From Minutocellus sp. GHC0000111 (Eukaryota): a DNA stretch of 64,000 nt. The stretch is taken from NCBI GenBank assembly GCA_977018835.1, contig OZ361256.1:1488001-1552000 (forward strand), written 5' to 3'. Below the pieces are notes generated by a model that saw nothing but the letters and a program-made list of their open reading frames with translations, ran no database searches and was not told the origin of the DNA. Below, piece by piece: positions 6,288 to 52,700 of this stretch (the first letter of the stretch is position 1; the number at the start of each line of letters is the position of its first letter). The translations under genes and the position numbers were made by a program.

Positions 6288-8453
6288 CTATTCTATTATA
6301 GCTTCGCCTTCCTTTTCTATAAGCTTCTCAGCCTGATTAGTCTCCAACAACAGCTTGGCCCAATGACGTTCACTGATAACACCCGCGCCGAGGCATTCCT
6401 CGTCGTCCATGTTGTAAAAGACGCAGTACTGACCGGGCGCAAGGCCCTTGTCTTTGGTGTCCAAGTGAACGTTGCCGCTACCACCGCCAGCGTCAGTCAT
6501 GTCAAGTGTTAGCGTGCCGTTGACCATGGTCGGTCCGTGCCGAATCTTCATCGTAAATCTACCATCCTTCCATTGCTTGTCGCCACCATCTCTCTGAACG
6601 AGCCGTTCAGGTGGAGATCCTGCAACCCACGTGATATCCTCTACGTAAAAGTCGGAGCGGGCTTCCTCAAACGCCTCTTGGTCGTACTCGTTGGAGGCAA
6701 TCACAATATTCTTCTCTTGATCCTTGGCAACGATATACCACGGACCCTTGGCCGTTTCCTTGGGGTTCAATACCTTATCGATGCCCTTCCTCTGACCGAC
6801 GGTATGATACCACAAACCGTTGTGCCGTCCAATGACACGTCCGGTGGTGGCATCGACAATATCGCCGGGATTGGTGCCCAGATAGGCGTTGATAAATTCG
6901 TCGAACTTGACCTTCCCAAGAAAACAGAGACCCTGCGAGTCCGGTCGATTTCGATTGGGCAGCTGAAATTGCTGGGCTAGATCACGTACCTCCGACTTGA
7001 GGAAGGACCCGATGGGAAACTCGACTCTGGATAGCTGCTCTTGCGTCAGAGCGCAGAGAAAATACGTCTGGTCTTTGACCGGATCGGGAGCTCGGAGGAG
7101 ATGCATTTGGCGTTGTCCACTTTCGTCCTCGTCGCCTTTCACCAGCTGTGCATAGTGTCCAGATGCAACGTAGTCAAATCCTCTTCCGCCAATGGCATCG
7201 TAAAAGCAACCAAACTTGACCCGAGAATTGCACATAATGTCTGGATTGGGTGTACGGCCCTTCCGTGCCTCGTCGACGGTGTAGAAAATGACTCGATCCT
7301 TGTATTGATTTTGGAGCGACACGGTCTCCAACGGCACGCCGGCCTGGTCACATACGGCCTGGCATACCGAGTAGTCGTCCTCCCAGGGACACTGGCCGAG
7401 ATGCGACAGTTCATCTTCCAACCATATCTTGAGGTAAAATGCCGTCACGTCGTATCCCTCCCGAACCAAGAGGTTGAGGGCCACGGAACTATCGACGCCA
7501 CCAGAGAGGAGCATGGCCACGGTGGGATGTCGCTTTTCACCGTTATTTGCTGGAGCATTGCTTGGTTCGGCTGTGGCAGGACTCTCGGCAGACAATCCCA
7601 AGCTTTGACGAATCTGATTCTGAACGACAGTCGTCATGCTGGCCAGCCCGTCATTCCGTCCCGTCGAAAGGACCGTGCGCAGACCCAGGAGATCGGCAAC
7701 TGTATCTGGGTCCAGATTGAGAATGTCTTGGGCGGTCACCCTTCCATCACCCGACAAGGCATCCGATAACAGGGCAAGGAGGCCACGGCTCAAGAGAGCA
7801 TCGGCATCGCCGTCGACGACGATTCGGTACTTGGATAGGTTTGTATTAGTGGCATCATCACTACTTTTCACGGCAGTATCGTCAAGAGGCAGCAACGACG
7901 TCTGAACGTGCACCGTGGCGACACACCCGGGAACTCGCTCGCGATCCGATAAAAGGGATGGCTCCAATGAAGAATTGGCATCGCCGTTGGCGGAAGCAGA
8001 GGAGGCAAATTGCTGACCACGTTCCACAATGGCCAGGTTGATCTTCTTGGTGGTGGCAGCATCGGTTGCTTCGTCACTACCAGAAGCGCCGCCCAGAATG
8101 GTCTGCCTCACTCGATCGAATGAGGTTTGGAGCGAATCGTTTGCTTCTGTTGGGATACTTATGTCAGGAGTCCGATCGACAAATAGTGGCGTTGTTGAAT
8201 CGTCGTCATCATCTGTATGACTGCTGGCAGCGCTCCACATTACATGTCTTTGCTTTGGAGGGCGATATTGATGGCCAGAGGATACAGCGGGGGAAACCAA
8301 TCGGGGAACAAACGCCAGAACATGCACATGCGACCAATTGCAGACGCACACGCCCATCAAGGTCAATAAGATGGCAAGGCCACCATTGTGGGGTGAAGAA
8401 AAGCCAGTACGACGACGACGCTGACGCATCAACTTGGTCCTGTCGTTCGCCAT
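6288..8453 (-). CDS. mnmA: SufE domain + tRNA U34 2-thiouridylase MnmA fusion, probably plastid-targeted
   Basis: MnmA motifs SGGVDS, NPDIMCN, SGHYA, KDQTYFL, DSQGLCF, TVGQRKG, PGQ. Upstream SufE motifs RVPGC, DADALLSRGLLALL, LGLxxxLSxGRxDG. Signal peptide ends VLA|FVP. Start is uncertain; ATG 8453 chosen. Confidence 0.9.
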   Translation of the reverse strand: MANDRTKLMRQRRRRTGFSSPHNGGLAILLTLMGVCVCNWSHVHVLAFVPRLVSPAVSSGHQYRPPKQRHVMWSAASSHTDDDDDSTTPLFVDRTPDISIPTEANDSLQTSFDRVRQTILGGASGSDEATDAATTKKINLAIVERGQQFASSASANGDANSSLEPSLLSDRERVPGCVATVHVQTSLLPLDDTAVKSSDDATNTNLSKYRIVVDGDADALLSRGLLALLSDALSGDGRVTAQDILNLDPDTVADLLGLRTVLSTGRNDGLASMTTVVQNQIRQSLGLSAESPATAEPSNAPANNGEKRHPTVAMLLSGGVDSSVALNLLVREGYDVTAFYLKIWLEDELSHLGQCPWEDDYSVCQAVCDQAGVPLETVSLQNQYKDRVIFYTVDEARKGRTPNPDIMCNSRVKFGCFYDAIGGRGFDYVASGHYAQLVKGDEDESGQRQMHLLRAPDPVKDQTYFLCALTQEQLSRVEFPIGSFLKSEVRDLAQQFQLPNRNRPDSQGLCFLGKVKFDEFINAYLGTNPGDIVDATTGRVIGRHNGLWYHTVGQRKGIDKVLNPKETAKGPWYIVAKDQEKNIVIASNEYDQEAFEEARSDFYVEDITWVAGSPPERLVQRDGGDKQWKDGRFTMKIRHGPTMVNGTLTLDMTDAGGGSGNVHLDTKDKGLAPGQYCVFYNMDDEECLGAGVISERHWAKLLLETNQAEKLIEKEGEAIIE

Positions 8454-9350
8454 GGTGGCAGGAGATTGTGTCCGCGCTGAAAGGGTAGAATTACGTATCA
8501 CAAAGGGTTCCAAGTGATCAGGCGCGTCGTCTCGACTACTGCCATCGTCCTCTTGGCTGCCAAGCCTTCGCCTCTGGCGGCTGCGAGACGGGCTGAGGCA
8601 CGCAGAAGACATCCCCATCATGGCCGGCCTTAAAAAAAATGGAGCGACGCGAGAAAATGAAGAAAAAAGGCATGCAATCGGCTGACGGCCAGACGATAAC
8701 AAATTTTTTCACGGGGAGTGTGCGGAAAGTCTGGTGTCGTTCAAGATTTCCATTTGATGTCATTCGGTGTCGAAATCTTCGCGTGGGCTGTTTTGCCGAC
8801 GGTCAATCCCATCACTTTTTGGACAGCCTCCGAGCCGGAGGGAGGTTGCTGGCGCGGCTGTGCATGCCTCTCCACCGCCCAAGAGAAGATACTGATACAA
8901 CACTCACTAATAGGTGTGATTGAACAGCGCGTTGTGCTGCACTGCACCGGATTTTCCCGGTATCTTTTGTCTATATTCGAAAAACCAGCACATCTCGTGT
9001 TCGGTAGAGCAGCAGCAGGGGCAGGAGCAGATCCGAGGTCACGACGAATCATCGAATCTTCCCCCGCCCCCACAGAGAGTGACCACTGCAAGAAGGCAGA
9101 CACACGATCCATTGAATTTACGTTTGCTTTTTTTAGAAATAAAAACGACAGAATGGAGGACCGCGCATTGCAGGGGAGAAGGCGGAGGCGGACCGCCGGC
9201 GGCAGGCCAAACAACTGCCGCGGCAGCAGCAGCGAAGGCGACGGCGGCGAATGTCCGATTTCGTCACATTCACAGGGAGGAGGAGGAATCTTGCCAAAAG
9301 CAGGAAGGCACCGCCGTCGGACTTTTGGGAGTGAAAAACGCCGGACCATA

Positions 9351-31513: not shown

Positions 31514-31906
31514 CGTGACGTAGGCTTTCGCAAGGCAATATGCGCTTCGTGGATCGGTTGGCTGCAGTTTGACTACATGTATGCTGCGCCATCTGAATCA
31601 ATGTCGGCGATGTGGGATGTGGGGCTGTGTGGGCAGATTCGATCCACTTCACTTCGCCGAAGCAGCACAAGTGCGAGCCGGCCTGTCTTGTGTGCAAGTC
31701 ATGATGTTGACCTCGCCCCAAGAGAAGCAGGCGAAGCGAAGTCAAAGAGGTGATCGAATCGACTTGCACAAGCGGCAACAATGCAACACCAGTCACATCA
31801 ACCACTGTCAGAGAGTAGCCGCCTGTTCCAGTTGTCACAAATATTGAGAGCCAAACCTACGCCTGCATATCCACTTCCTCTCTCCCACCCACACATCTTC
31901 CCCACC

Positions 31907-34418
31907 ATGTTGTCGTCGTCTTTGCTACTTCGAACCATCGTCCTCATCCTTGTCGCCACCGCCGCCATCAACTGCTCGGCCCAGCAGCCCCGGCCGGCCC
32001 ACCAGCTCGTCCGAGAGGGACCCTTCCGCCTCCGCCTGCATTACCAGTCCGACTACAACTGGCAGACCGACAACCTCGCCTTCGGCACCAGCTACTGCTG
32101 GGCCTGTTCCGGTTCCGGCGCCGATCTAGGCAGCTCGACCACCCAGGCCACCAAGCTGATGGAGAAGGGAGACGATGGCCCTTCACAGGCAGACGTCAAG
32201 AAGCAGTGCCAGAAGGGCGACACCGTATGGATCGCACCGTGTGACCTCAAGGATCCCAAACAGCTCTTTCAGTACGAACGGATTGATAATCTGTTGCAGG
32301 TCGATGGACACACCGCCACGGTGGGATTGTTCAAGATTGCCGGCACCGACCTGTGCCTGACCGACGATCGGGCCGAGAATTGTGGCTTCGATACCACCGA
32401 CGTCGAGTACGAGGAAGAAAAATGTTACACGTTGCAGAAATGTGCCACGGCCCGGTTGATGAGCAAGATGGAACGTGCCGGCGGTGGAGGAGGCGATGGC
32501 GACTCGTCCATAATGTCTGCTGCAACCAAAGAGGAAGATACGACCAAAGATCGAGATGATCCGTATTCTTTTTTGCCCTCCATTGCCTCCCGCCAACTGT
32601 TCGTTGGATTCAACCCCTCGCGAGATTTGTTCGAGATCCATCCCTTCTCCCTGACGGGCTACACCGCCACGCAGGGCATCAGCTACCGCAAATGCGTGAG
32701 CAACCATCACCATCCCAAGCCCAAGGAGCTCATCTACGCCCAGGGATGCGACGTGGCCCGCCGCACCGATTCAAGCTACTGGAAGATTTGGGGCGAGAGC
32801 TGCACGTCGTACGCGCCCTGTCACATGTGCGAGGGCAAGTGTCGCGATCACGATCACTGTGAAGGATCTCTTCAGTGCTTTTATCGGGAAGATGACGACG
32901 ACGACTCCTTTGTGCCGGGCTGTGGTTCGTCGTTCAATGGTTTGGAGCCGGGTGAAAATGTATGCTACTATCCAGGAGAAGGTTTGACGCTAAGCACAAC
33001 ACCTGATGAAGATTCAGTGACAACAGCCTCGTTGTATGAATGCGAGGGAGATTGTGGTGAGTATCTCGCATATGCATTTCTTTCGCTTGCTTATTGTTAT
33101 TACTTTTATTCCTCATCCAACCTAATATCTCTGCTTTACTTACTTGCTTTCAGACGCCGACTCGGACTGCTTTGGAGAGCTAGTTTGCTATTTCCGCAAT
33201 GCGTATGAGTCAGTACCAGGATGTTCGGGCCAGGGAGGCCGAGGTGAGGACTACTGCTATCACCCAATGCATCATGGAGTTCACGGTGATAGCAACATGA
33301 TTCCGAGAATCACTCGTAACCCCACCCAGGCTCCGACCACACCCAAACCAACTCCAAGGCCTACCTTGCGAGCCCGTCCAAATGAGCCCGAGAGGCCCAG
33401 AGATTACGCTTTGAATGACGACAAAGAATCATCTGAGGAGTTGGGCGTTTCTGTAAATAGGGCACATGCAGATCCTTTTGGTGATGGCGAAAGCCCGCTT
33501 GGAGGTGAGGGTGCTGGTGTAGTCGATACCAAGACCACAACGTTTGAGGTAGTTCGCAATCATAATTGTTTTCTCGGGCAGTGCGACCTTTGCGAAGGAT
33601 CCTGTCGGCATGATAGTGACTGCGCAGAGGGTCTCTTTTGCATCAAGAGAGATGAATTTAGTGACGATACTGTTGACAACTTCGCAGATTGTTCTGGTCA
33701 GGCCCAACGACGAGAAAATTACTGCTACCACTCAAGACCATACACCGAGCTCATGATCGTACCAGATGCGGGCGCAAATTGTGGAAAGGGCGTGATCTGC
33801 ACAGCGTGTCAGGGTGATTGCGGTGAGTTTCGTATACATTGTTTATGTTTGTCGTTTGTCTCCTTCTTGTATACAATGTCTCACATGAGTAATTTTTCCT
33901 TTCTACTCACATGCTTTGCTTCAGACAACGATGAGGAATGTGCTGGCAAGCTCAAATGTTTCCAGCGATCATCATTCGAGCGAGTTCCCGGCTGTGCTGG
34001 AAAAGGCGTTGAGGGCCGAGATTATTGCTATAAATCTGATAATGAAGAGGAGTTCAACGAGGTCGAAGATGCCGGAGATACTCCTGTACCAGAGGTGGGA
34101 CATAAGCTTGATCCGTTGATTGATGAGGTCGCGGCCATCGATGATGGTTTGGCACACGAAAAGCTTCCAAAACTGACAGAAGAGGACTACTATTGCCAGA
34201 AGGTTCCATGTGGAGTATGTGAAGGAGATTGTAATGATTCAACCATGTGCTCTGGTGATCTGGTATGTATCCATCGCGAAGGAGATGAGTCCATGGAAAA
34301 TCTTGGATGTTCTGGTAAAGGTGTAAAAGGAGTAGATTACTGTGTGGATCAGATGAAAGTGACTTGGAGGACGGCGAGGTATGATGGAACGACGAAGAAG
34401 TGGTGGGCGCTAAACTGA
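31907..34418 (+). CDS. Frustulin-like cell-wall protein: N-terminal Trp-containing domain + five acidic Cys-rich (acr) repeats; introns 33057-33153 and 33823-33924
   Basis: Signal peptide; repeated C(E/Q)G(D/K/S)C..D..C.G.L.C..R.....VPGC.G......DYCY; GTGAGT...CAG introns both restore CxGDCD. Confidence 0.85.
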
Positions 34419-35339: not shown

Positions 35340-36047
35340 TCAGCTCAACGTGTCGGTCACCTCCAATCTTTGGGTAGCTCGCTCTCTCACTCGGAGTCTC
35401 CGCTCTTTCGCCGCTTTCTCTCGCAGCATCCTCCATCTACGCCCGTCTTCTCGCTTCTGCAGTATCTTTGCGATATTATTCGTATTGTCATCTTCGCCTG
35501 AATTATCATCACGTGTTCCCTTGCTGCTGGCGTCAGTCGCCACTCGGACCACATGCCGGCATTCCTCTGGGGAATTTACTCTTGTAAAGTGAGAATCTTC
35601 GGCGGCAATGGAATTCGACTGAATGTGACCATTTGGTCCCATGGTACAGTGATCTCGACAACCACCGCCAACAACGCGGATGTTGCACTTGCTGCTGTTA
35701 CCTGCCTTCTCGCCCCTGCCCATTACCAGCGACTCAATCTCGAGGAGGGCAGCACCGCCGCCGCTGCCAGAGCAGTCTGGTCCCAAGCATACCTCGATGG
35801 TCACTGCTTTATTGCCATTGTCAATGCCCCCATCAGCTGGTAGAGAGTCCAGCACCTCCTTGCCCTGGTCGACTGTACTACTACTGCCGGCACTTTGGTG
35901 ACCTGTCGTGTCGTTGATGGTGGCTTCGTCGGTGGCTTTGTAACGAGATGTGTCGCAGTAGCTACGCTGCGGATCTACCCGCGCCCGGGCCGTCTGCTGC
36001 CTCTGCCGGGCCTGCAACTGCTTCAAGAGCAGGGCACCGCTCGACAT
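35340..36047 (-). CDS. Thioredoxin-like [2Fe-2S] ferredoxin domain protein
   Basis: IEVCLGPDC...GCRDHCTMGPN gives the C-x4-C...C-x3-C-xx-GP pattern. Confidence 0.75.
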   Translation of the reverse strand: MSSGALLLKQLQARQRQQTARARVDPQRSYCDTSRYKATDEATINDTTGHQSAGSSSTVDQGKEVLDSLPADGGIDNGNKAVTIEVCLGPDCSGSGGGAALLEIESLVMGRGEKAGNSSKCNIRVVGGGCRDHCTMGPNGHIQSNSIAAEDSHFTRVNSPEECRHVVRVATDASSKGTRDDNSGEDDNTNNIAKILQKREDGRRWRMLREKAAKERRLRVRERATQRLEVTDTLS

Positions 36048-36336
36048 GCTCCCTCATTCATATAATCTCTTCAGCAACTCCCAGCAAAATTCTCCGATGC
36101 TACTCACCATCGAAGGCAAATGGCAGTGGCGGACAGACGAATTTCGTGGCAAGAATGAGGCCAACTGCGGCAGCGCATAGTAGCAGCGCGCGTACGTTCG
36201 TACGTTGCATAAAACACTGCAACAGCAACCGCAACTACCGCAACGACTGCTACTGTCCATAGCTTGCTTAGCTCTAGCTTGAAGAGCCGTTGGCCTTTAT
36301 TCTTTCCTTCTGTCATTTCCCGGGGCGTTCCTTGTC

Positions 36337-36856
36337 ATGACGGCAATAACATTTATCGTTCGTCACCTGAGTTTTCATATTTATTTTCTAGCGAAGGAAT
36401 TGCGCGCATTACATGTACAATGGCACTTGCTGTGGCGTGCATGATTTTGAATGCACAGTCACAAATATATATGTAGAACGCAGAACGCTAATCAACCCCA
36501 TTTTTTCATCCCTTCTTATTCATGTGGGCATTTGCATTCAAATGGCATTCCGTTTTGAACGTTTACTTGACTACTTGCAACATTCGCAGTCCAAGAACTG
36601 AGACGGGGGGCTTCAGGAACGGCAGACGGTAGTTGATGCCATCACCGATGTATTTCCTGGAGCCAGCGTGGAGGCACACAGCAAGAACGCCTATCCGTTG
36701 AGGCTGAGGGTGCACGCAAAGATTGATGAAGGAGAAAAGGTCAAAGTTTGGGACGGCGATCAGAAAAGGCTGTTCAAAAAGTATCCCGGCAAGCGGGCGG
36801 AGTGCATTGAGGAAATTCGAACTGCACTTGAGAAAATCCGGGACGAAATCCAATAG
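36337..36856 (+). CDS. Candidate small selenoprotein (about 95 aa, SxxU motif, Rdx/thioredoxin-like fold); UGA at 36599-36601
   Basis: TCC AAG AAC TGA GAC GGG is in frame with ORF 36668..36856, and a SECIS-like hairpin lies downstream. 5' end is either exon MTAITFI (36337-36357) + intron 36358-36589, or an unspliced ATG at 36542. Confidence 0.7.
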
Positions 36857-36920
36857 TGGCAGCCCGCAGTCCATGTTGTGTGACATCTCTCCTGTACCTA
36901 GCGTCTGTGGCGACACTATC

Positions 36921-36964
36921 GGTGAATGACGGTAGCCTGTAGAAACGCTGCTACCTGAAATACC
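36921..36964 (+). promoter_or_regulatory. SECIS-like element in the 3' UTR
   Basis: GGTG-A-ATGAC-GGTAGC-CTGTAG-AAA-CGCT-GCTACC-TGAA-A-TACC: AUGA core, AAA 13 nt after it, 3' UGAA, perfect GGTAGC/GCTACC helix, GGTG/TACC lower helix. Confidence 0.7.
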
Positions 36965-37429
36965 AAATGATCGTCCAGCGGATACGAGCTCACACTTTGA
37001 ACCCATTAGGCGGAACGAAAGAAAAGTACCAGCGAGGAAAATTTACACGCTGTACCGTATATGCGATAGATTTGTTGCTTTTTTATTCCGACTCCTTGCG
37101 CCGAACTACATGCCCGTCGGAACATTGTGAATGATATCTATACATACATGTATGGCTTATCCGCGAAATCGAGATTCACGATGAAAGGATTAAGGAATGG
37201 TTTTTGTCATGAAGTGTAGGATGACTTGATAAAATCCCTGATTTGCAGATTACCAACTCAGGGCATGAAAGTTACCTGGACAAACGCAAGAAGGGCAATG
37301 CTCTGGGACAGTAGATCTTGACCTAGCAGAAAAAGACACGAGAGGTCACTGCAGGTAGATCTAGATCTACCGTAGGAATTCCTCGATCTGGGGCATCTTA
37401 TTGACCTTTGTAAGTTAGTATTTTCAGAG

Positions 37430-37990
37430 TTGCTTCGTCACCACGATTCTCGCGGTCACCGTCATCTCCAGCATCGGCGCCGCCATGCGCCAAACGCAGA
37501 GGCGATCCAAGACATTTGCATCAATCCCAAGCCGAAGTTTAACGTCGAGGAGGCCTTATCAGACCTCCAAGCCAACAGGATCAAGTTCAACAACCTCCAA
37601 AATTACGATATGCGCATCCAACGGAGCTGATATTGCTATGGAGATAAACTTGACCCGTACCTCATCAGTGTTCGGAATGGCATCACAGCATCGGTGACCA
37701 ATGAGCGGACGGGCGAGGCGATGAATCTCGACGATCAACGGTACAAATTACCCGCCATTGCCGACCTGTTTGACATCATCGATACTGCTTGCACCAAACC
37801 ATATGCCAGTCTATTTGTGACGTATGATGCCGATAGGGGATATCCAACGAGCATGGGATATGATGTGAACGAGTGCATTGCTGATGAGGAGAATTCGTAC
37901 ACAGTGACTGACTTTGTAGACAGGACGCCAATGTTTGTCGATGCCAGCTCGAACCTTCGGCGGCGGCGGCGGCGATATCACCAGGGGTAA
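37430..37990 (+). pseudogene. Upstream tandem paralog of 38517-39356 with an in-frame TGA (37628-37630) and no clear start/signal peptide
   Basis: FNVEEALSDLQANRIKFNNLQNYDM..QRS*YC...LPAIADLFDII...YDADRGYP...IADEENSYTVTDF aligns with the downstream copy. Confidence 0.6.
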
Positions 37991-38516
37991 GAAACAAACA
38001 AGCGAAGGCAGAGGCAGAACAGCAGACAGATCTACCGTGTACATTTTACCGTACATGTAATGTCAGAGCAAAGTGTACATAGTAAATCGTTTTTTTCCGT
38101 ATGCAGCGGCTGGAACTCTAGATCTAGTCAGCTTATAGACAGGGTAACTCAATCTGGCATGTCTACACTGTAAATTTAGCTGTAGTTACGAGTAAACTCA
38201 AAAGGCCATGCAACACAGTATGATGCCGCATAAATGATTTTGTCGGTCATTTGTCACATCCCAGCCCCCGCCCACCCGCAAGCACGTCGTTCCCGAGTGT
38301 CAAACCACAAACCAACCACGACCACATGCAATAACAAAACAGTCCCAATAGCATCTCTCGAATGCAAAACGCTTCTTCTTCATTCGGCAACTGACAATCA
38401 CAAACATCCTGGCGTGCGTTAATTGCTTCATCATTTATTGCGCAAGAGCGGCAGATACTGCAACTATTTTGACAGTCTAAAGTAGTGCAAACTTACGTCA
38501 CGCGGAGCACCGAGCA

Positions 38517-39356
38517 ATGCGTTCCTCGTCCACCCACCGAATGATTACACTTGCTGCCTTGCTGGCGGCACTTGCTCAGGCCGCAACCTTAGATTTGCAA
38601 AAAGACGAAGAAAGCATTCACGAACGATTCCATCGTCCTCAGGGCCGCCATCTGCGTCGCTCTCCCCCCGCCAACCGCCACCATCGACAAGGACGCCGTC
38701 GAGCCGAAAACGATGCAGCAGTCCACGAAATGGCGCCGAAAGTAGATGAAAACGTTGCTATTGAGCCTAAGCCCATCGAAGCCCAAGACTTTTGCTCCGA
38801 CCCAACGGCTGATCCCGTTGCTCGGTTTGACGTTGAGGCTGCCCTTGCCGAGCTCGAGGCCAATAAGCTCAAATTCAACAGCCTCCAAAATTACGACATG
38901 AAGGGCGTCGAACGTGCCTGCTTCTGTGCCGAGGAATGGAGAGGCCCTTATTCTCTTAATGTTCGCAATGGAATCATAACATTAGCGATCAACGAGCTGA
39001 CGGGCGAAGCGGTGGATCCCCAATACTTCAATCTTCCAACCGTTGAAGATCTGTTCCGACAGATTGAAACGGCCTGCACCGAACCATATTTCGATCTAAC
39101 TGCGATGTATGATATCGACATGGGATACCCGGTGAATTCATGGTTTAACATGAATCAATGCATTTGCGACGAAGAAGTGGGCTATACGGTGACAGATCTG
39201 GTGGACATGACGCCTGATCTCTTGAATCCCAATCCAGATGGAGGGGATTTGACCAAGGGCAAGAAGGGTGATGCGCCAGGACAGCAGAACAGGTCTAGTA
39301 GCAAGCCGCGAAAGCCAAAGCCAAAGGATCTCAACAGAAGAAAGAACAAGGCGTAA
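38517..39356 (+). CDS. Secreted protein with a DUF6174-like domain
   Basis: Signal peptide, RHL site; RACFC...GPYSLNVRNG...LPTVEDLF...YD...GYP...DEEVGYTVTD resembles the mainly bacterial DUF6174 pattern (recognised from memory). Confidence 0.7.
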   Translation: MRSSSTHRMITLAALLAALAQAATLDLQKDEESIHERFHRPQGRHLRRSPPANRHHRQGRRRAENDAAVHEMAPKVDENVAIEPKPIEAQDFCSDPTADPVARFDVEAALAELEANKLKFNSLQNYDMKGVERACFCAEEWRGPYSLNVRNGIITLAINELTGEAVDPQYFNLPTVEDLFRQIETACTEPYFDLTAMYDIDMGYPVNSWFNMNQCICDEEVGYTVTDLVDMTPDLLNPNPDGGDLTKGKKGDAPGQQNRSSSKPRKPKPKDLNRRKNKA

Positions 39357-49793: not shown

Positions 49794-52700
49794 ATGGTCC
49801 GGAAGAAGCTCGACGCCCGCATCCGGACGCTCATCGAGCGCTCCGTCGTGACCGGCCAGCGGTCGATGCTGGTCCTGGTCGGCGATCATGGCAAGGATCA
49901 GGTCCCCAACCTCCACCAACTTTTGGCCCGAACGTCCGTCAAGGCCCGTCCCAAGGTGCTGTGGTGCTACAAGAAGGAGTTGGGGTTCTCGACGCATCGG
50001 ATGAAGGTACGTACGCTCGATTGATTGGCATTGCATTACCTGATGAGTTTGTTGCGGTATGCCCATGAGATGCAAATGCAATCCGATCCAGCTGCATCAC
50101 AATATCTATATCGACATCGCCATGACGAGTATTATTCTGAGGGTCTGACGGTGCTAAAAATGTCTGGCATTTCGACTGAGGACCAAGCAATAATAATCCT
50201 ATACCCAAATTTCTGAGCGATATCATGTTTCGATGATATATGTGATGAACAGTCTGTGTTGTGGCCCAACTTTTTTCCAAAGATATCACTTCTCACAACT
50301 TTTTATTATCTCAACCTAACCTCTATTGCCTGCAGCGCATGAAGAAGATCAAACGCGACAAGGCCCGAGGACTGGCTTAGGGCACGTTGGGCAACGACGA
50401 GGACCAATCCGCCGACAACTTCGAGCTGTTCATCTCCTCCACCGACATCAACTGGTGCTACTACCGCGACACGCATCGCGTTCTGGGTTCCACGGTCGGC
50501 GTCCTCGTCCTCCAAGACTTTGAGGCGTTGACTCCCAACATCATGGTCCGGACCATCGAAACCGTTGAGGGCGGTGGCCTCGTCATCTTCCTCATGCGCA
50601 CGGTCAAGAGTTTGAAGCAGCTGTACAGCATGAGCGTGGACGTGCATTCGCGGTACCGCACGGAGCAGAGCGGGGACGTCGTGCCTCGGTTCAATGAGCG
50701 GTTCATCCTAAGTTTGGGCAAATGCGCCAACTGTCTGGTTTGTGATGATGAGCTCAATGTTTTGCCGCTTTCCAAGTCGGCGCTTCGGAGGCTGGGCGAT
50801 GGAAGCGATGGGAGCAATATGATCCAAAAGGGTGATGCCGGGGAGGTTGTTATGCGCAAGAGCAAGGAGGACATTGAGCTCGAGGAGCTCAAGGAATCGC
50901 TGTCCGATACGCCGCACGTTGGCGTGATTGTCGATCTGGCGAAGACGTTGGATCAGGCCCGGGCCATCCTTACCTTTTTGGAGGCATGCAGCGAAAAGAC
51001 ATCGAGGTCGACGGTTGCCTTGACGGCTGCTCGTGGACGTGGAAAGTCGGCGGCCATTGGCCTTTGTTTGTCGGGAGCCATATCGTTTGGCTATTCCACC
51101 ATTTGTGTCACAGCGCCTGAGCCGGAGAACTTGGTGGCGGTCTTTGACTTTGTATTGCGTGGTCTCAAGGCCCTCAAATATCAGGAACACTTGGACTACA
51201 CGGTATCATACAACACGGCATCGGGCAGAGAGCAGACCAAGTGCATCGTCGGCGTTGAGATTCATCGTGATCACAAGCAGAGCATTCGCTACGTCCGACC
51301 GGACGAACCCGACAAATTTGCAAGTGCTGAGCTTGTTGCGATCGATGAGGCGGCTGCCATCCCATTGCCAACCGTCCGCGCATTGATGGGCGATCGCCTG
51401 ACCTTCATGAGTTCCACCATTAACGGATACGAGGGCACCGGACGTGCTCTCAGCCTCAAGCTATTGAAAGAATTGCGCGATAGCAAGGGACGTGGTGGAC
51501 TGGATGCCGCCACAGCTGCTGCAGATGCCATCGCTGGATCCAAAACGAAGAAGGTGAGACATTCATGAATTGGAACAAGACGACTATATTGTTCCTCCTC
51601 TTGTCTTTCAATTATCATTACTCACTGTGCATTTGAATTCCCTTTATCTCGATTGTAGGGTGAGGCCAAGGTTCATGAGCAGAGATGGGCAGCAGCGGCC
51701 GCAGCGGCTGCAGATGCACAGAATGCCGCCGCCAACAGCGGCCCTTTGCGTGAAATCGAGCTCAGTCCCCCCATCCGATACTCTCTCGGAAATCCAATCG
51801 AGTCTTGGCTCAACAAGCTTTTGTGCTTGGACTGTGGAAGTAGTGCCAGCATGAAGCTCTTGGGAGGTGCCCCCGCCCCTCAAGAATGCGAGCTTTACCA
51901 CGTCGACCGCGACGCCCTCTTCTCCTACCACAAACTTTCCGAGGCCTTTTTGCAGAAACTTATGGGACTCTACACAAGCGCCCACTACAAGAACACACCG
52001 AACGATTTGCAGATGCTGTCTGATGCTCCGGCCCATGCTGTCTTTGTCCTTCTGTCGCCCTCCGCCGAAGAGGACGCCGATTCTCTCCCTGATGTCCTTG
52101 CCGTTGTGCAGGTGGCACTTGAGGGCAAGATCTCACGCAAGGCTGTCGAAGCCCAGCTTGCTCGTGGCCAAAGGTCGGCCGGTGACCTTATTCCTTGGAC
52201 GCTTAGCCAACAATTTGGTGACAGTAACTTTGCACAGCTGAGTGGGGCGAGAGTTGTCCGTGTTGCCGTCCACCCTTCTGTGCAGGGTATGGGATACGGT
52301 TCAAGAGCAGTCGAACAGCTCTACCGTTTCTACAATGGCGATATGGTGTCTCTTTCGGGTGGAGCTGATGATGAGTCTGATGAGGAGGAACAACCAGACG
52401 ATGAGACCAGGTCGTCGGATGAAGAAGAGGCCATGGGAGACAGTGGCTCCAAGAAGGGCATTCGAGGTGAGAAGCTCAACCCCCGTAAGGAGCTGCCACC
52501 CCTTCTCTTGCCCTTGACGGAAGTCAAAGCACCGCGACTCGATTGGCTCGGCACATCCTTCGGCTTACCAACGATCTTCATCGATTCTGGCGTCGGACGG
52601 GTATGCGAATGCTCTACTTGCGACAAACAAAAAATGACCTGACCGGTGAGCACTCGTCCATCATGATCCGAGCGCTTCCAAAACGAACTGGTTTTGATGA

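What the first reader, a model, noticed from the sequence alone, without database searches (positions are those of the whole stretch)
36337..36964. Hidden selenoprotein candidate: in-frame UGA in an SxxU motif plus a SECIS-like hairpin
Seen: reading TGA 36599-36601 as Sec gives (MTAITFI)SKN-U-DGGLQERQTVVDAITDVFPGASVEAHSKNAYPLRLRVHAKIDEGEKVKVWDGDQKRLFKKYPGKRAECIEEIRTALEKIRDEIQ*. The pattern is beta-(xxU)-alpha-beta-beta-beta-alpha, and no Met follows the UGA. About 70 nt past the stop lies ATGAC-GGTAGC...AAA...GCTACC-TGAA with a GGTG/TACC lower helix and further pairing (about 36902-36986). Known: eukaryotic Sec decoding needs such a 3' UTR SECIS; Rdx proteins (SelW/T/H) place CxxU right after the first strand; diatoms are selenoprotein-rich. 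Inference: a divergent Rdx/thioredoxin-like selenoprotein with Ser replacing the resolving Cys and lacking the GxFEI motif. I cannot assign it to a named family. The SECIS upper stem is shorter than usual and exon 1 is inferred.
Basis: partly seen in the sequence, partly recalled or inferred. Interest (0 to 1): 0.9.

Follow-up and report, generated by a model that had tools for sequence, protein, structure and literature searches.

The report
Uncatalogued SelW-like selenoprotein family in protists
This diatom gene has an internal TGA that likely encodes selenocysteine, and it belongs to a widespread family of small, predicted SelW-like redox proteins of single-celled eukaryotes that gene annotations cut short, although this copy has a changed splice site and may not be spliced normally.

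Summary
TGA 36599-36601 is in frame, and four independent runs read the same letters. A relative at 70% protein identity keeps it (exon-2 dN/dS 0.11). Among 108 homologues with the motif region, 47 have Cys at this column and 59 have Trp. In the one case checked on DNA, the Trp is TGA read by a gene caller. None of 20 eukaryote-annotated models has Trp: 6 have Cys and 14 lack the motif. The SECIS-like hairpin is the only 3' sequence shared with the relative, but it is short and shows no compensatory change. Predicted structures match SelW/Rdx best, but weakly (Z 6.5-8.6). Pfam Rdx misses this protein and GxFEI is absent from all 108. The family, motif (C/S)xN(U/C)DGGxQE, spans diatoms, cryptophytes, a labyrinthulid, a chytrid and amoebae. 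SxxU is common in it, not a peculiarity of this copy. I found no description in the papers searched; key supplements were unreadable. One correction: the family-type exon 1 ends at 36366, where this genome has CT instead of the GT of the relative. No spliced read was seen, so this copy may be damaged.

The parts
36337..36366 (+). Exon 1 coding part in its family-type (ancestral) extent, 10 codons, encoding strand 1
   Evidence: 24 of 30 nt identical to L001 exon 1. The family profile aligns it: 96.8 bits against 88.4 for exon 2 alone.
36358..36363 (+).
   Evidence: Present in the window, absent in L001. The resulting exon 1 is not aligned by the family profile, 89.5 bits. Use not shown.
36367..36372 (+). 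Ancestral donor position, reading CTGAGT here and GTGAGT in L001/L002
   Evidence: No other letter at 36367 in 4 of 4 runs whose contigs cover it.
36367..36589 (+). Intron (from 36358 if the upstream donor is used), with branch-like TTGAC at 36567-36571 and a CAG acceptor
   Evidence: GC 0.40 against 0.52 in exon 2. Same acceptor in L001. 39 of 106 homologues have Q or K just before the motif, the sign of an intron end read through at this position. One RNA contig starts exactly at 36590.
36590..36856 (+). Exon 2 coding part, 88 residues plus stop; predicted helix-strand-strand-strand-helix part of an Rdx/SelW-like fold
   Evidence: dN/dS 0.11 against L001.
36599..36601 (+). In-frame TGA, inferred selenocysteine codon, in an S-x-x-U motif (36590-36601)
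   Evidence: Kept in L001/L002. Column holds C in 47 and W in 59 of 108 homologues. Same letters in 4 of 4 runs.
36921..36964 (+). Compact SECIS-like hairpin; core 70 nt after the stop and 325 nt after the TGA
   Evidence: A 13-nt exact match to the 3' region of L001; 0 of 300 shuffles reach it (best 11).

Best explanation
This two-exon diatom gene carries a conserved in-frame TGA that is likely read as selenocysteine with help from a compact SECIS-like hairpin, and it would give a 95-98 residue protein predicted to have a SelW/Rdx-like fold and likely to act as a single-selenol redox catalyst. Shown: the TGA, its conservation, purifying selection on exon 2, the Cys/TGA pairing across a family of more than 200 database proteins, and the conserved hairpin. 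Predicted: the fold, with the motif between strand 1 and helix 1. Inferred: Sec insertion. Also inferred: the selenolate attacks a peroxide or a partner's oxidised thiol; with Ser in place of the motif Cys, the intermediate would be released by glutathione or by a Cys elsewhere, as in monothiol glutaredoxins (established knowledge, recalled). The protein has no long N-terminal extension, so it is likely cytosolic (no targeting predictor was run). Splicing is unresolved. My odds: substitute donor 36358, 0.55; CT donor at 36367 still used, 0.15; no productive splicing, 0.25; other, 0.05.
For: TGA and the acceptor kept in L001/L002 although dS is about 1.37; dN/dS 0.11. 124 hits in one library and 111 in another (overlapping, and a few weak hits are unrelated). 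Motif column: W 59, C 47, other 2, of 108. In P0002 the three W residues at issue fall on TGA codons of L001, two of them intronic, so the W comes from the gene caller. Of 20 models from eukaryote-aware sources, 6 have Cys, none Trp, and 14 lack the motif; 4 Thalassiosirales models jump from strand 1 straight past it. The hairpin is conserved although it lies 70 nt after the stop here and 6 nt after it in L001; the introns share at most 7 nt. 19 of 20 stem cells pair. The core fits UGAN/KGAW (PMC3753652, passages). Best structural matches: SelW-related 2fa8 (Z 8.6, rmsd 2.8, 79 aligned) and mouse SelW 2npb (Z 7.7, rmsd 2.9, 84 aligned) for homologue P0018; mouse SelW first for exon 2 itself (Z 6.5, rmsd 2.5, 72 aligned). 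Pfam Rdx matches 5 of 56 members, one above the cut-off. Diatoms carry 20-44 selenoprotein genes (PMC7539508, section 5).
Against: No spliced joint was seen in 3 RNA runs; contigs of X1 and X3 cross the whole intron unspliced. The ancestral donor reads CT. The SECIS has only a 6-bp clean stem and 11 nt between the apical AA and the 3' core. That is too short for the one SECISearch pattern I could see, and the SECISearch3 filter asks for a stem of 7 or more (compared by hand). Rfam gave no SECIS hit. There is no compensatory pair change and one pair breaks in L001; only two species were compared. W was traced to TGA for one cluster only. The fold scores lie in the range the tool calls common, tied with non-redox folds (RNA 3' cyclase Z 8.1), and Foldseek had no match at E <= 0.001. 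No activity was tested. This copy has Ser where many SxxU members have a candidate second Cys.
Confidence: 0.68

Rival explanations
1. The family is a real selenoprotein family, but this copy is recently broken. The G-to-C change at the ancestral donor leaves the intron in the message, a stop at 36442 ends translation, and the short SECIS is part of the decay.
For: CT at the donor in the window and in 4 of 4 runs; two RNA contigs of two studies span the intron unspliced. Six letters after the C still match L001 although dS is 1.37, so the change looks recent. The substitute donor shifts strand 1 out of the family register. The first in-frame stop without splicing is at 36442.
Against: Exon 2 has no stop or frameshift, and a close relative differs at only 2 of 87 residues. 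An RNA contig starts exactly at the acceptor (about 1 in 80 by chance for 14 contig ends, my estimate). All stem pairs of the hairpin are intact. Unspliced contigs may come from DNA, pre-mRNA or antisense RNA.
Confidence: 0.22
2. The intron is retained and translation starts at an ATG inside it (36542 or 36413), in frame with exon 2, giving a selenoprotein with a new N-terminus.
For: The last 66 codons of the intron are open in the exon-2 frame, which 2.1% of shuffles give. Relative P0132 keeps the ATG and the open frame.
Against: The intron-derived part differs at 3 of 16 residues from P0132 against 2 of 87 in exon 2 (Fisher p 0.026), as expected for non-coding DNA, and it adds nothing to the family profile score, 88.3 bits. 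The upstream ATG 36337 would be met first. L001 has stops in that frame.
Confidence: 0.04
3. Sec is inserted, but the protein is not a turnover enzyme. It is a redox-switched binding or adaptor protein, as proposed for SELENOW with 14-3-3, and uses the conserved basic Q-x-x-L-F-x-K and C-terminal helix surface.
For: Q-x-x-L-F/Y-x-K is kept in 106 of 108 motif-bearing members, more strictly than the first motif Cys. One clade has S-R-L-C and long tails. SELENOW binds 14-3-3 (PMC10650576, passages).
Against: Repeated Sec/Cys exchange across the tree (weak support) is what catalytic sites show (established knowledge). No partner is known.
Confidence: 0.04
4. The UGA is a true stop or is read as Trp; the hairpin is chance.
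For: 59 database homologues show W at the column. Rfam finds no SECIS.
Against: W traced to TGA at three sites. No eukaryote-annotated model has W, 0 of 20. The alternative residue is Cys. No Met follows the TGA. The hairpin is conserved in a relative.
Confidence: 0.02

Closest known systems
Rdx family (SELENOW, SELENOT, SELENOH, SELENOV, Rdx12; Pfam PF10262, NCBIfam TIGR02174)
   Same: Small predicted strand-helix-strand-strand-strand-helix fold with the Sec/Cys motif right after strand 1; the best structural matches are SelW proteins. A few members match PF10262 and TIGR02174 over nearly the whole model.
   Different: No GxFEI/V in 0 of 108 members; Y/F-P-I/V at that loop instead (88 of 108). 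Own signatures N-(U/C)-D-G-G-x-Q-E and Q-x-x-L-F-x-K. Ser in about half of the members at the first motif position. This protein matches neither profile.
Algal SELENOW and 'Hypo' families among the 42 families of Jiang et al. 2020 (PMC7539508)
   Same: Sec and Cys forms in diatoms and other algae.
   Different: Could not be compared: the supplement was too large to read. The main text does not mention SxxU and describes SELENOW as CxxU or UxxU.
Eukaryotic SECIS elements (type I/II; SECISearch3 model)
   Same: RUGAN/NGAN core, lower helix, apical adenines, position in the 3' region, 325 nt from the UGA.
   Different: Upper stem and loop shorter than the pattern seen in the SECISearch3 supplement, both here and in L001.

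Membership tests
Eukaryotic selenoprotein gene | In-frame UGA conserved in relatives, with conservation on both sides | tested here: met
   L001/L002 keep the TGA, exon 1 (24 of 30 nt) and exon 2 (dN/dS 0.11).
Eukaryotic selenoprotein gene | Cys in homologues at the UGA column | tested here: met
   47 of 108 motif-bearing homologues have Cys. The searches were seeded with Cys at this place, which favours such hits.
Eukaryotic selenoprotein gene | SECIS downstream with the UGAN/NGAN core, conserved | tested here: met
   Core and both helices in the window and L001; 13-nt shared stretch not reached in 300 shuffles.
Eukaryotic selenoprotein gene | SECIS of standard length, with covarying pairs | tested here: inconclusive
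   Shorter than the one pattern seen; no two-sided change in two sequences; no Rfam hit. SECISearch3 itself was not run.
Eukaryotic selenoprotein gene | Spliced mRNA that holds both the UGA and the SECIS | tested here: inconclusive
   One RNA-library contig spans both but is unspliced; no joint listed.
Eukaryotic selenoprotein gene | Sec machinery in the genome and selenium in the protein | not testable with these tools
   No whole genome is held; needs labelling or mass spectrometry.
Rdx / SELENOW family | Thioredoxin-like fold of the SelW type | tested here: met
   Predicted models; SelW entries rank first, Z 8.6 and 6.5, tied within 1 Z with unrelated folds.
Rdx / SELENOW family | Cys-x-x-Sec motif | tested here: not met
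   Ser-x-x-Sec here; 50 of 108 family members do have the first Cys.
Rdx / SELENOW family | tGxFEI(V) stretch (PMC10650576, passage) | tested here: not met
   Absent here and in 108 of 108 motif-bearing members.
Rdx / SELENOW family | Match to PF10262 or TIGR02174 at the curated cut-off | tested here: not met
   No match for this protein. One member, P0073, passes PF10262 (25.2 against 22.6 bits); none of 18 passes TIGR02174.
Published algal families (SELENOW, Hypo and others) | Sequence similarity to the listed members | not testable with these tools
   Supplement unreadable. In the four supplements of PMC2375036 the signature strings were not found.

The most novel reading that the evidence does not exclude
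An ancient, pan-eukaryotic selenoprotein family, sister to Rdx/SelW, has been missed by all selenoproteome surveys. This copy would also be a snapshot of a splice-donor shift, or a CT donor, fixed in a wild diatom.
Probability: 0.45. Interest if true: 0.72.

Novelty: new variant of a known kind. Interest (0 to 1): 0.55.

Why it matters
New eukaryotic selenoprotein families are rare: a survey of 137 algae added three (PMC7539508, abstract). This one appears in diatoms and many other protists, and public models cut or splice around its active site in 14 of 20 annotated cases. Adding it would enlarge the diatom selenoproteome, which bears on why marine algae need selenium. It also offers a natural series of CxxU, SxxU, CxxC and SxxC variants in one small fold, which makes the value of Sec and of the resolving Cys testable. 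The mechanism of Sec insertion is itself well known, so this is an addition, not a new principle.

Tried and rejected
Pfam on the protein itself: no family up to E 10. Rfam: one chance hit, no SECIS. PDB by sequence profile: nothing below E 0.27. Foldseek: no match at E <= 0.001. Prokaryotic and viral homologues: none confirmed. A TGA-bearing DNA pattern gave 35 prokaryotic loci, none of which scored with the family profile (best E 0.24), and 0 viral loci; these are weak searches, not proof of absence. A second paralogue in the window: none. Testing whether GTTCGT is a usual donor in this genome: not enriched (35 seen, 31.5 expected), and the few clear introns found use GTGAGT or GTGAGA, so inconclusive. 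The link between Ser at the motif and Cys before Tyr-Pro (17 of 29 against 5 of 31, Fisher p 0.001) was not corrected for relatedness and is only a lead. The family tree (124 sequences, 83 columns) is too weak to count switches. Literature: 10 searches found no description of the family by title, abstract start or motif string. The library lacks most subscription papers, among them the original Rdx paper, which I saw only in reference lists. Earlier findings of this scan: none by sequence or place. No language-model look-alike search was obtained.

Full report
Observation. An ATG at 36337 opens a short frame, a CAG acceptor ends at 36589, and exon 2 runs from 36590 to TAG 36854-36856 with TGA as its fourth codon and no later in-frame Met. 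Contigs from 4 of 4 runs laid cover the TGA with no other letter; one of them may be the source of the window. The host is a diatom: the named best hits of the neighbouring NAT10 gene are Eucampia, Chaetoceros and Pseudo-nitzschia at 77-78% identity.

A relative keeps the whole design. One scan of metagenomes gave two loci, L001 and L002, near-identical to each other and 70% identical to this protein; they count as one species. They keep the TGA, the acceptor and exon 1 (24 of 30 nt). Exon 2 has dS about 1.37 and dN about 0.15, so dN/dS is 0.11. The 3' regions share a 13-nt exact stretch, which 0 of 300 shuffles reach, and it is the 5' side of the hairpin; the introns share at most 7 nt. The hairpin core lies 70 nt after the stop here and 6 nt after it in L001. 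Of 10 stem pairs, 8 never vary, one changes on one side and one breaks; none changes on both sides. So the element is conserved, but its structure is not proven by covariation. It is compact: 12 nt precede the apical AA and only 11 follow before the 3' core. That does not fit the one SECISearch pattern visible in the supplement of PMC3753652, and the 6-bp clean stem is at the edge of the SECISearch3 filter (compared by hand). The core fits UGAN/KGAW. Rfam found nothing.

The family. Searches gave 124 hits at E <= 0.001 among 50%-identity representatives and 111 with a profile; these overlap, and a few weak hits are unrelated. Of 232 distinct proteins then held, 108 carried the motif region: 59 W, 47 C and 2 other residues at the TGA column; 57 S, 48 C and 3 other at the position three before. 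For P0002 the W residues fall on TGA codons of L001 at the motif and at two intronic sites, so the W is a gene caller's reading of TGA. I could not check this for other clusters. Of 20 proteins from eukaryote-aware annotation, 6 have Cys (Naegleria twice, Willaertia, Cochliopodium, two unnamed transcriptomes), none has Trp, and 14 lack the motif (Thalassiosirales diatoms, Guillardia, Hanusia, Hondaea, a Lobulomycetales chytrid); four diatom models jump from strand 1 directly past the motif. This is the pattern a hidden selenoprotein leaves; that those 14 genes carry TGA is inferred. The tree is weak, but it shows several diatom clades, scattered W and C states, and this protein in a divergent clade of its own (support 0.99). 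No prokaryotic or viral member was confirmed.

Fold. AlphaFold2 on homologue P0018 gave pLDDT 94.8 and the order strand-helix-strand-strand-strand-helix. Its best matches were a SelW-related bacterial protein (Z 8.6) and mouse SelW (Z 7.7), tied with a ciliary protein and RNA 3' cyclase. Exon 2 alone (pLDDT 84.9; first four residues below 50) matched mouse SelW first, Z 6.5, with its first residue on SelW residue 10; that SelW's CxxU starts at residue 10 is recalled. Pfam Rdx matched 5 of 56 members and one passed the cut-off. This protein matched neither Pfam Rdx nor TIGR02174. The Rdx hallmarks are CxxU and tGxFEI(V) (PMC10650576, passage); the first is replaced by SxxU here and the second is absent from all 108 members. 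It therefore likely works like an Rdx protein, but I do not file it as a member.

The exon 1 problem. In 66 members with an intact N-terminus, the five residues before the motif are F (56 of 66), any, V/I (65 of 66), any, and Y/F (the last position was used to select them). The window's codons up to 36366 fit this, and L001 has GTGAGT exactly there. The window has CTGAGT, confirmed in 4 of 4 runs. RNA does not settle it: no joint was listed; contigs of X1 and X3 cross the intron; one X4 contig begins exactly at 36590 while another crosses the donor region unspliced. Contigs from RNA libraries may hold DNA or antisense RNA. The simplest reading is a recent loss of the donor, rescued by the cryptic site 9 nt upstream at the cost of three residues; decay of this copy is the main rival.

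How it likely works. The UGA would be read as Sec through the hairpin (established mechanism; use here inferred). The selenolate at the start of helix 1 would attack a peroxide or an oxidised thiol of a partner. With no Cys in the motif, glutathione or a distant Cys would release it. Among W-type members, a Cys four residues before the Tyr-Pro loop occurs in 17 of 29 with Ser against 5 of 31 with Cys (not corrected for relatedness), a candidate relocated resolving Cys. This copy has Ser there; its only Cys is in the last helix (36803-36805). No substrate is known.

What is known. Jiang et al. list 42 algal families (PMC7539508; abstract, sections 5, 10 and 22, and passages); its supplement could not be read and may hold this family under SELENOW or Hypo. 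Lobanov et al. (PMC2375036; passages and four supplements searched) list no SelW for Thalassiosira and hold none of the signature strings. The fungal survey (10.1101/314781, passages) names seven known families and no SelenoW or Rdx. I also saw passages of PMC10668967, PMC4840926 and PMC2874811, which added no description of this family. UniRef labels one truncated member 'Selenoprotein W', so the likeness has been noticed by an automatic name. Ten searches found no description; that is limited by the library.

Verdict. TGA as a Sec codon by descent: about 0.96. A working selenoprotein from this copy: about 0.75. The family undescribed: about 0.6. New variant of a known kind; interest 0.55.

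Noticed in passing
window 50378-50380 and about 52564-52567 (+): The NAT10 gene has an in-frame TAG where homologues have Lys, and a frameshift that relatives at 96-99% identity lack. This points to assembly errors or a broken allele in the window.
   Followed up: partly
P0202 (Lobulomycetales), P0226 (Guillardia), P0233 (Hanusia), P0030 (Hondaea): Annotated members start after, or skip, the motif. They are candidate hidden selenoproteins; a chytrid member would add a family to the fungal list. DNA not seen.
   Followed up: no
P0047, P0048, P0076, P0079, P0089, P0101, P0113, P0117, P0126: A well-supported subclade has an S-R-L-C motif, an insertion and long low-complexity tails, some ending in a Cys-rich stretch.
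   Followed up: no
window 36563-37042 (-): A 159-codon stop-to-stop frame overlaps exon 2 and the hairpin on the other strand; probably a shadow frame.
   Followed up: no
window 37631-37990 and 38481-39356 (+): Two tandem DUF6174 genes lie just downstream.
   Followed up: no
window 31754-34418 (+): An intron-containing gene with repeated Cys-rich C-x-G-D-C modules and no Pfam match.
   Followed up: no
window 35340-36053 (-): The divergently transcribed upstream frame holds a Cys motif of the form C-x-G-P-x-C ... C-x-x-x-C and has no Pfam match at E 0.001; by recall this resembles thioredoxin-like 2Fe-2S ferredoxins.
   Followed up: no
window 6288-8708 (-): A SufE domain fused to an MnmA-type tRNA thiouridylase.
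   Followed up: no
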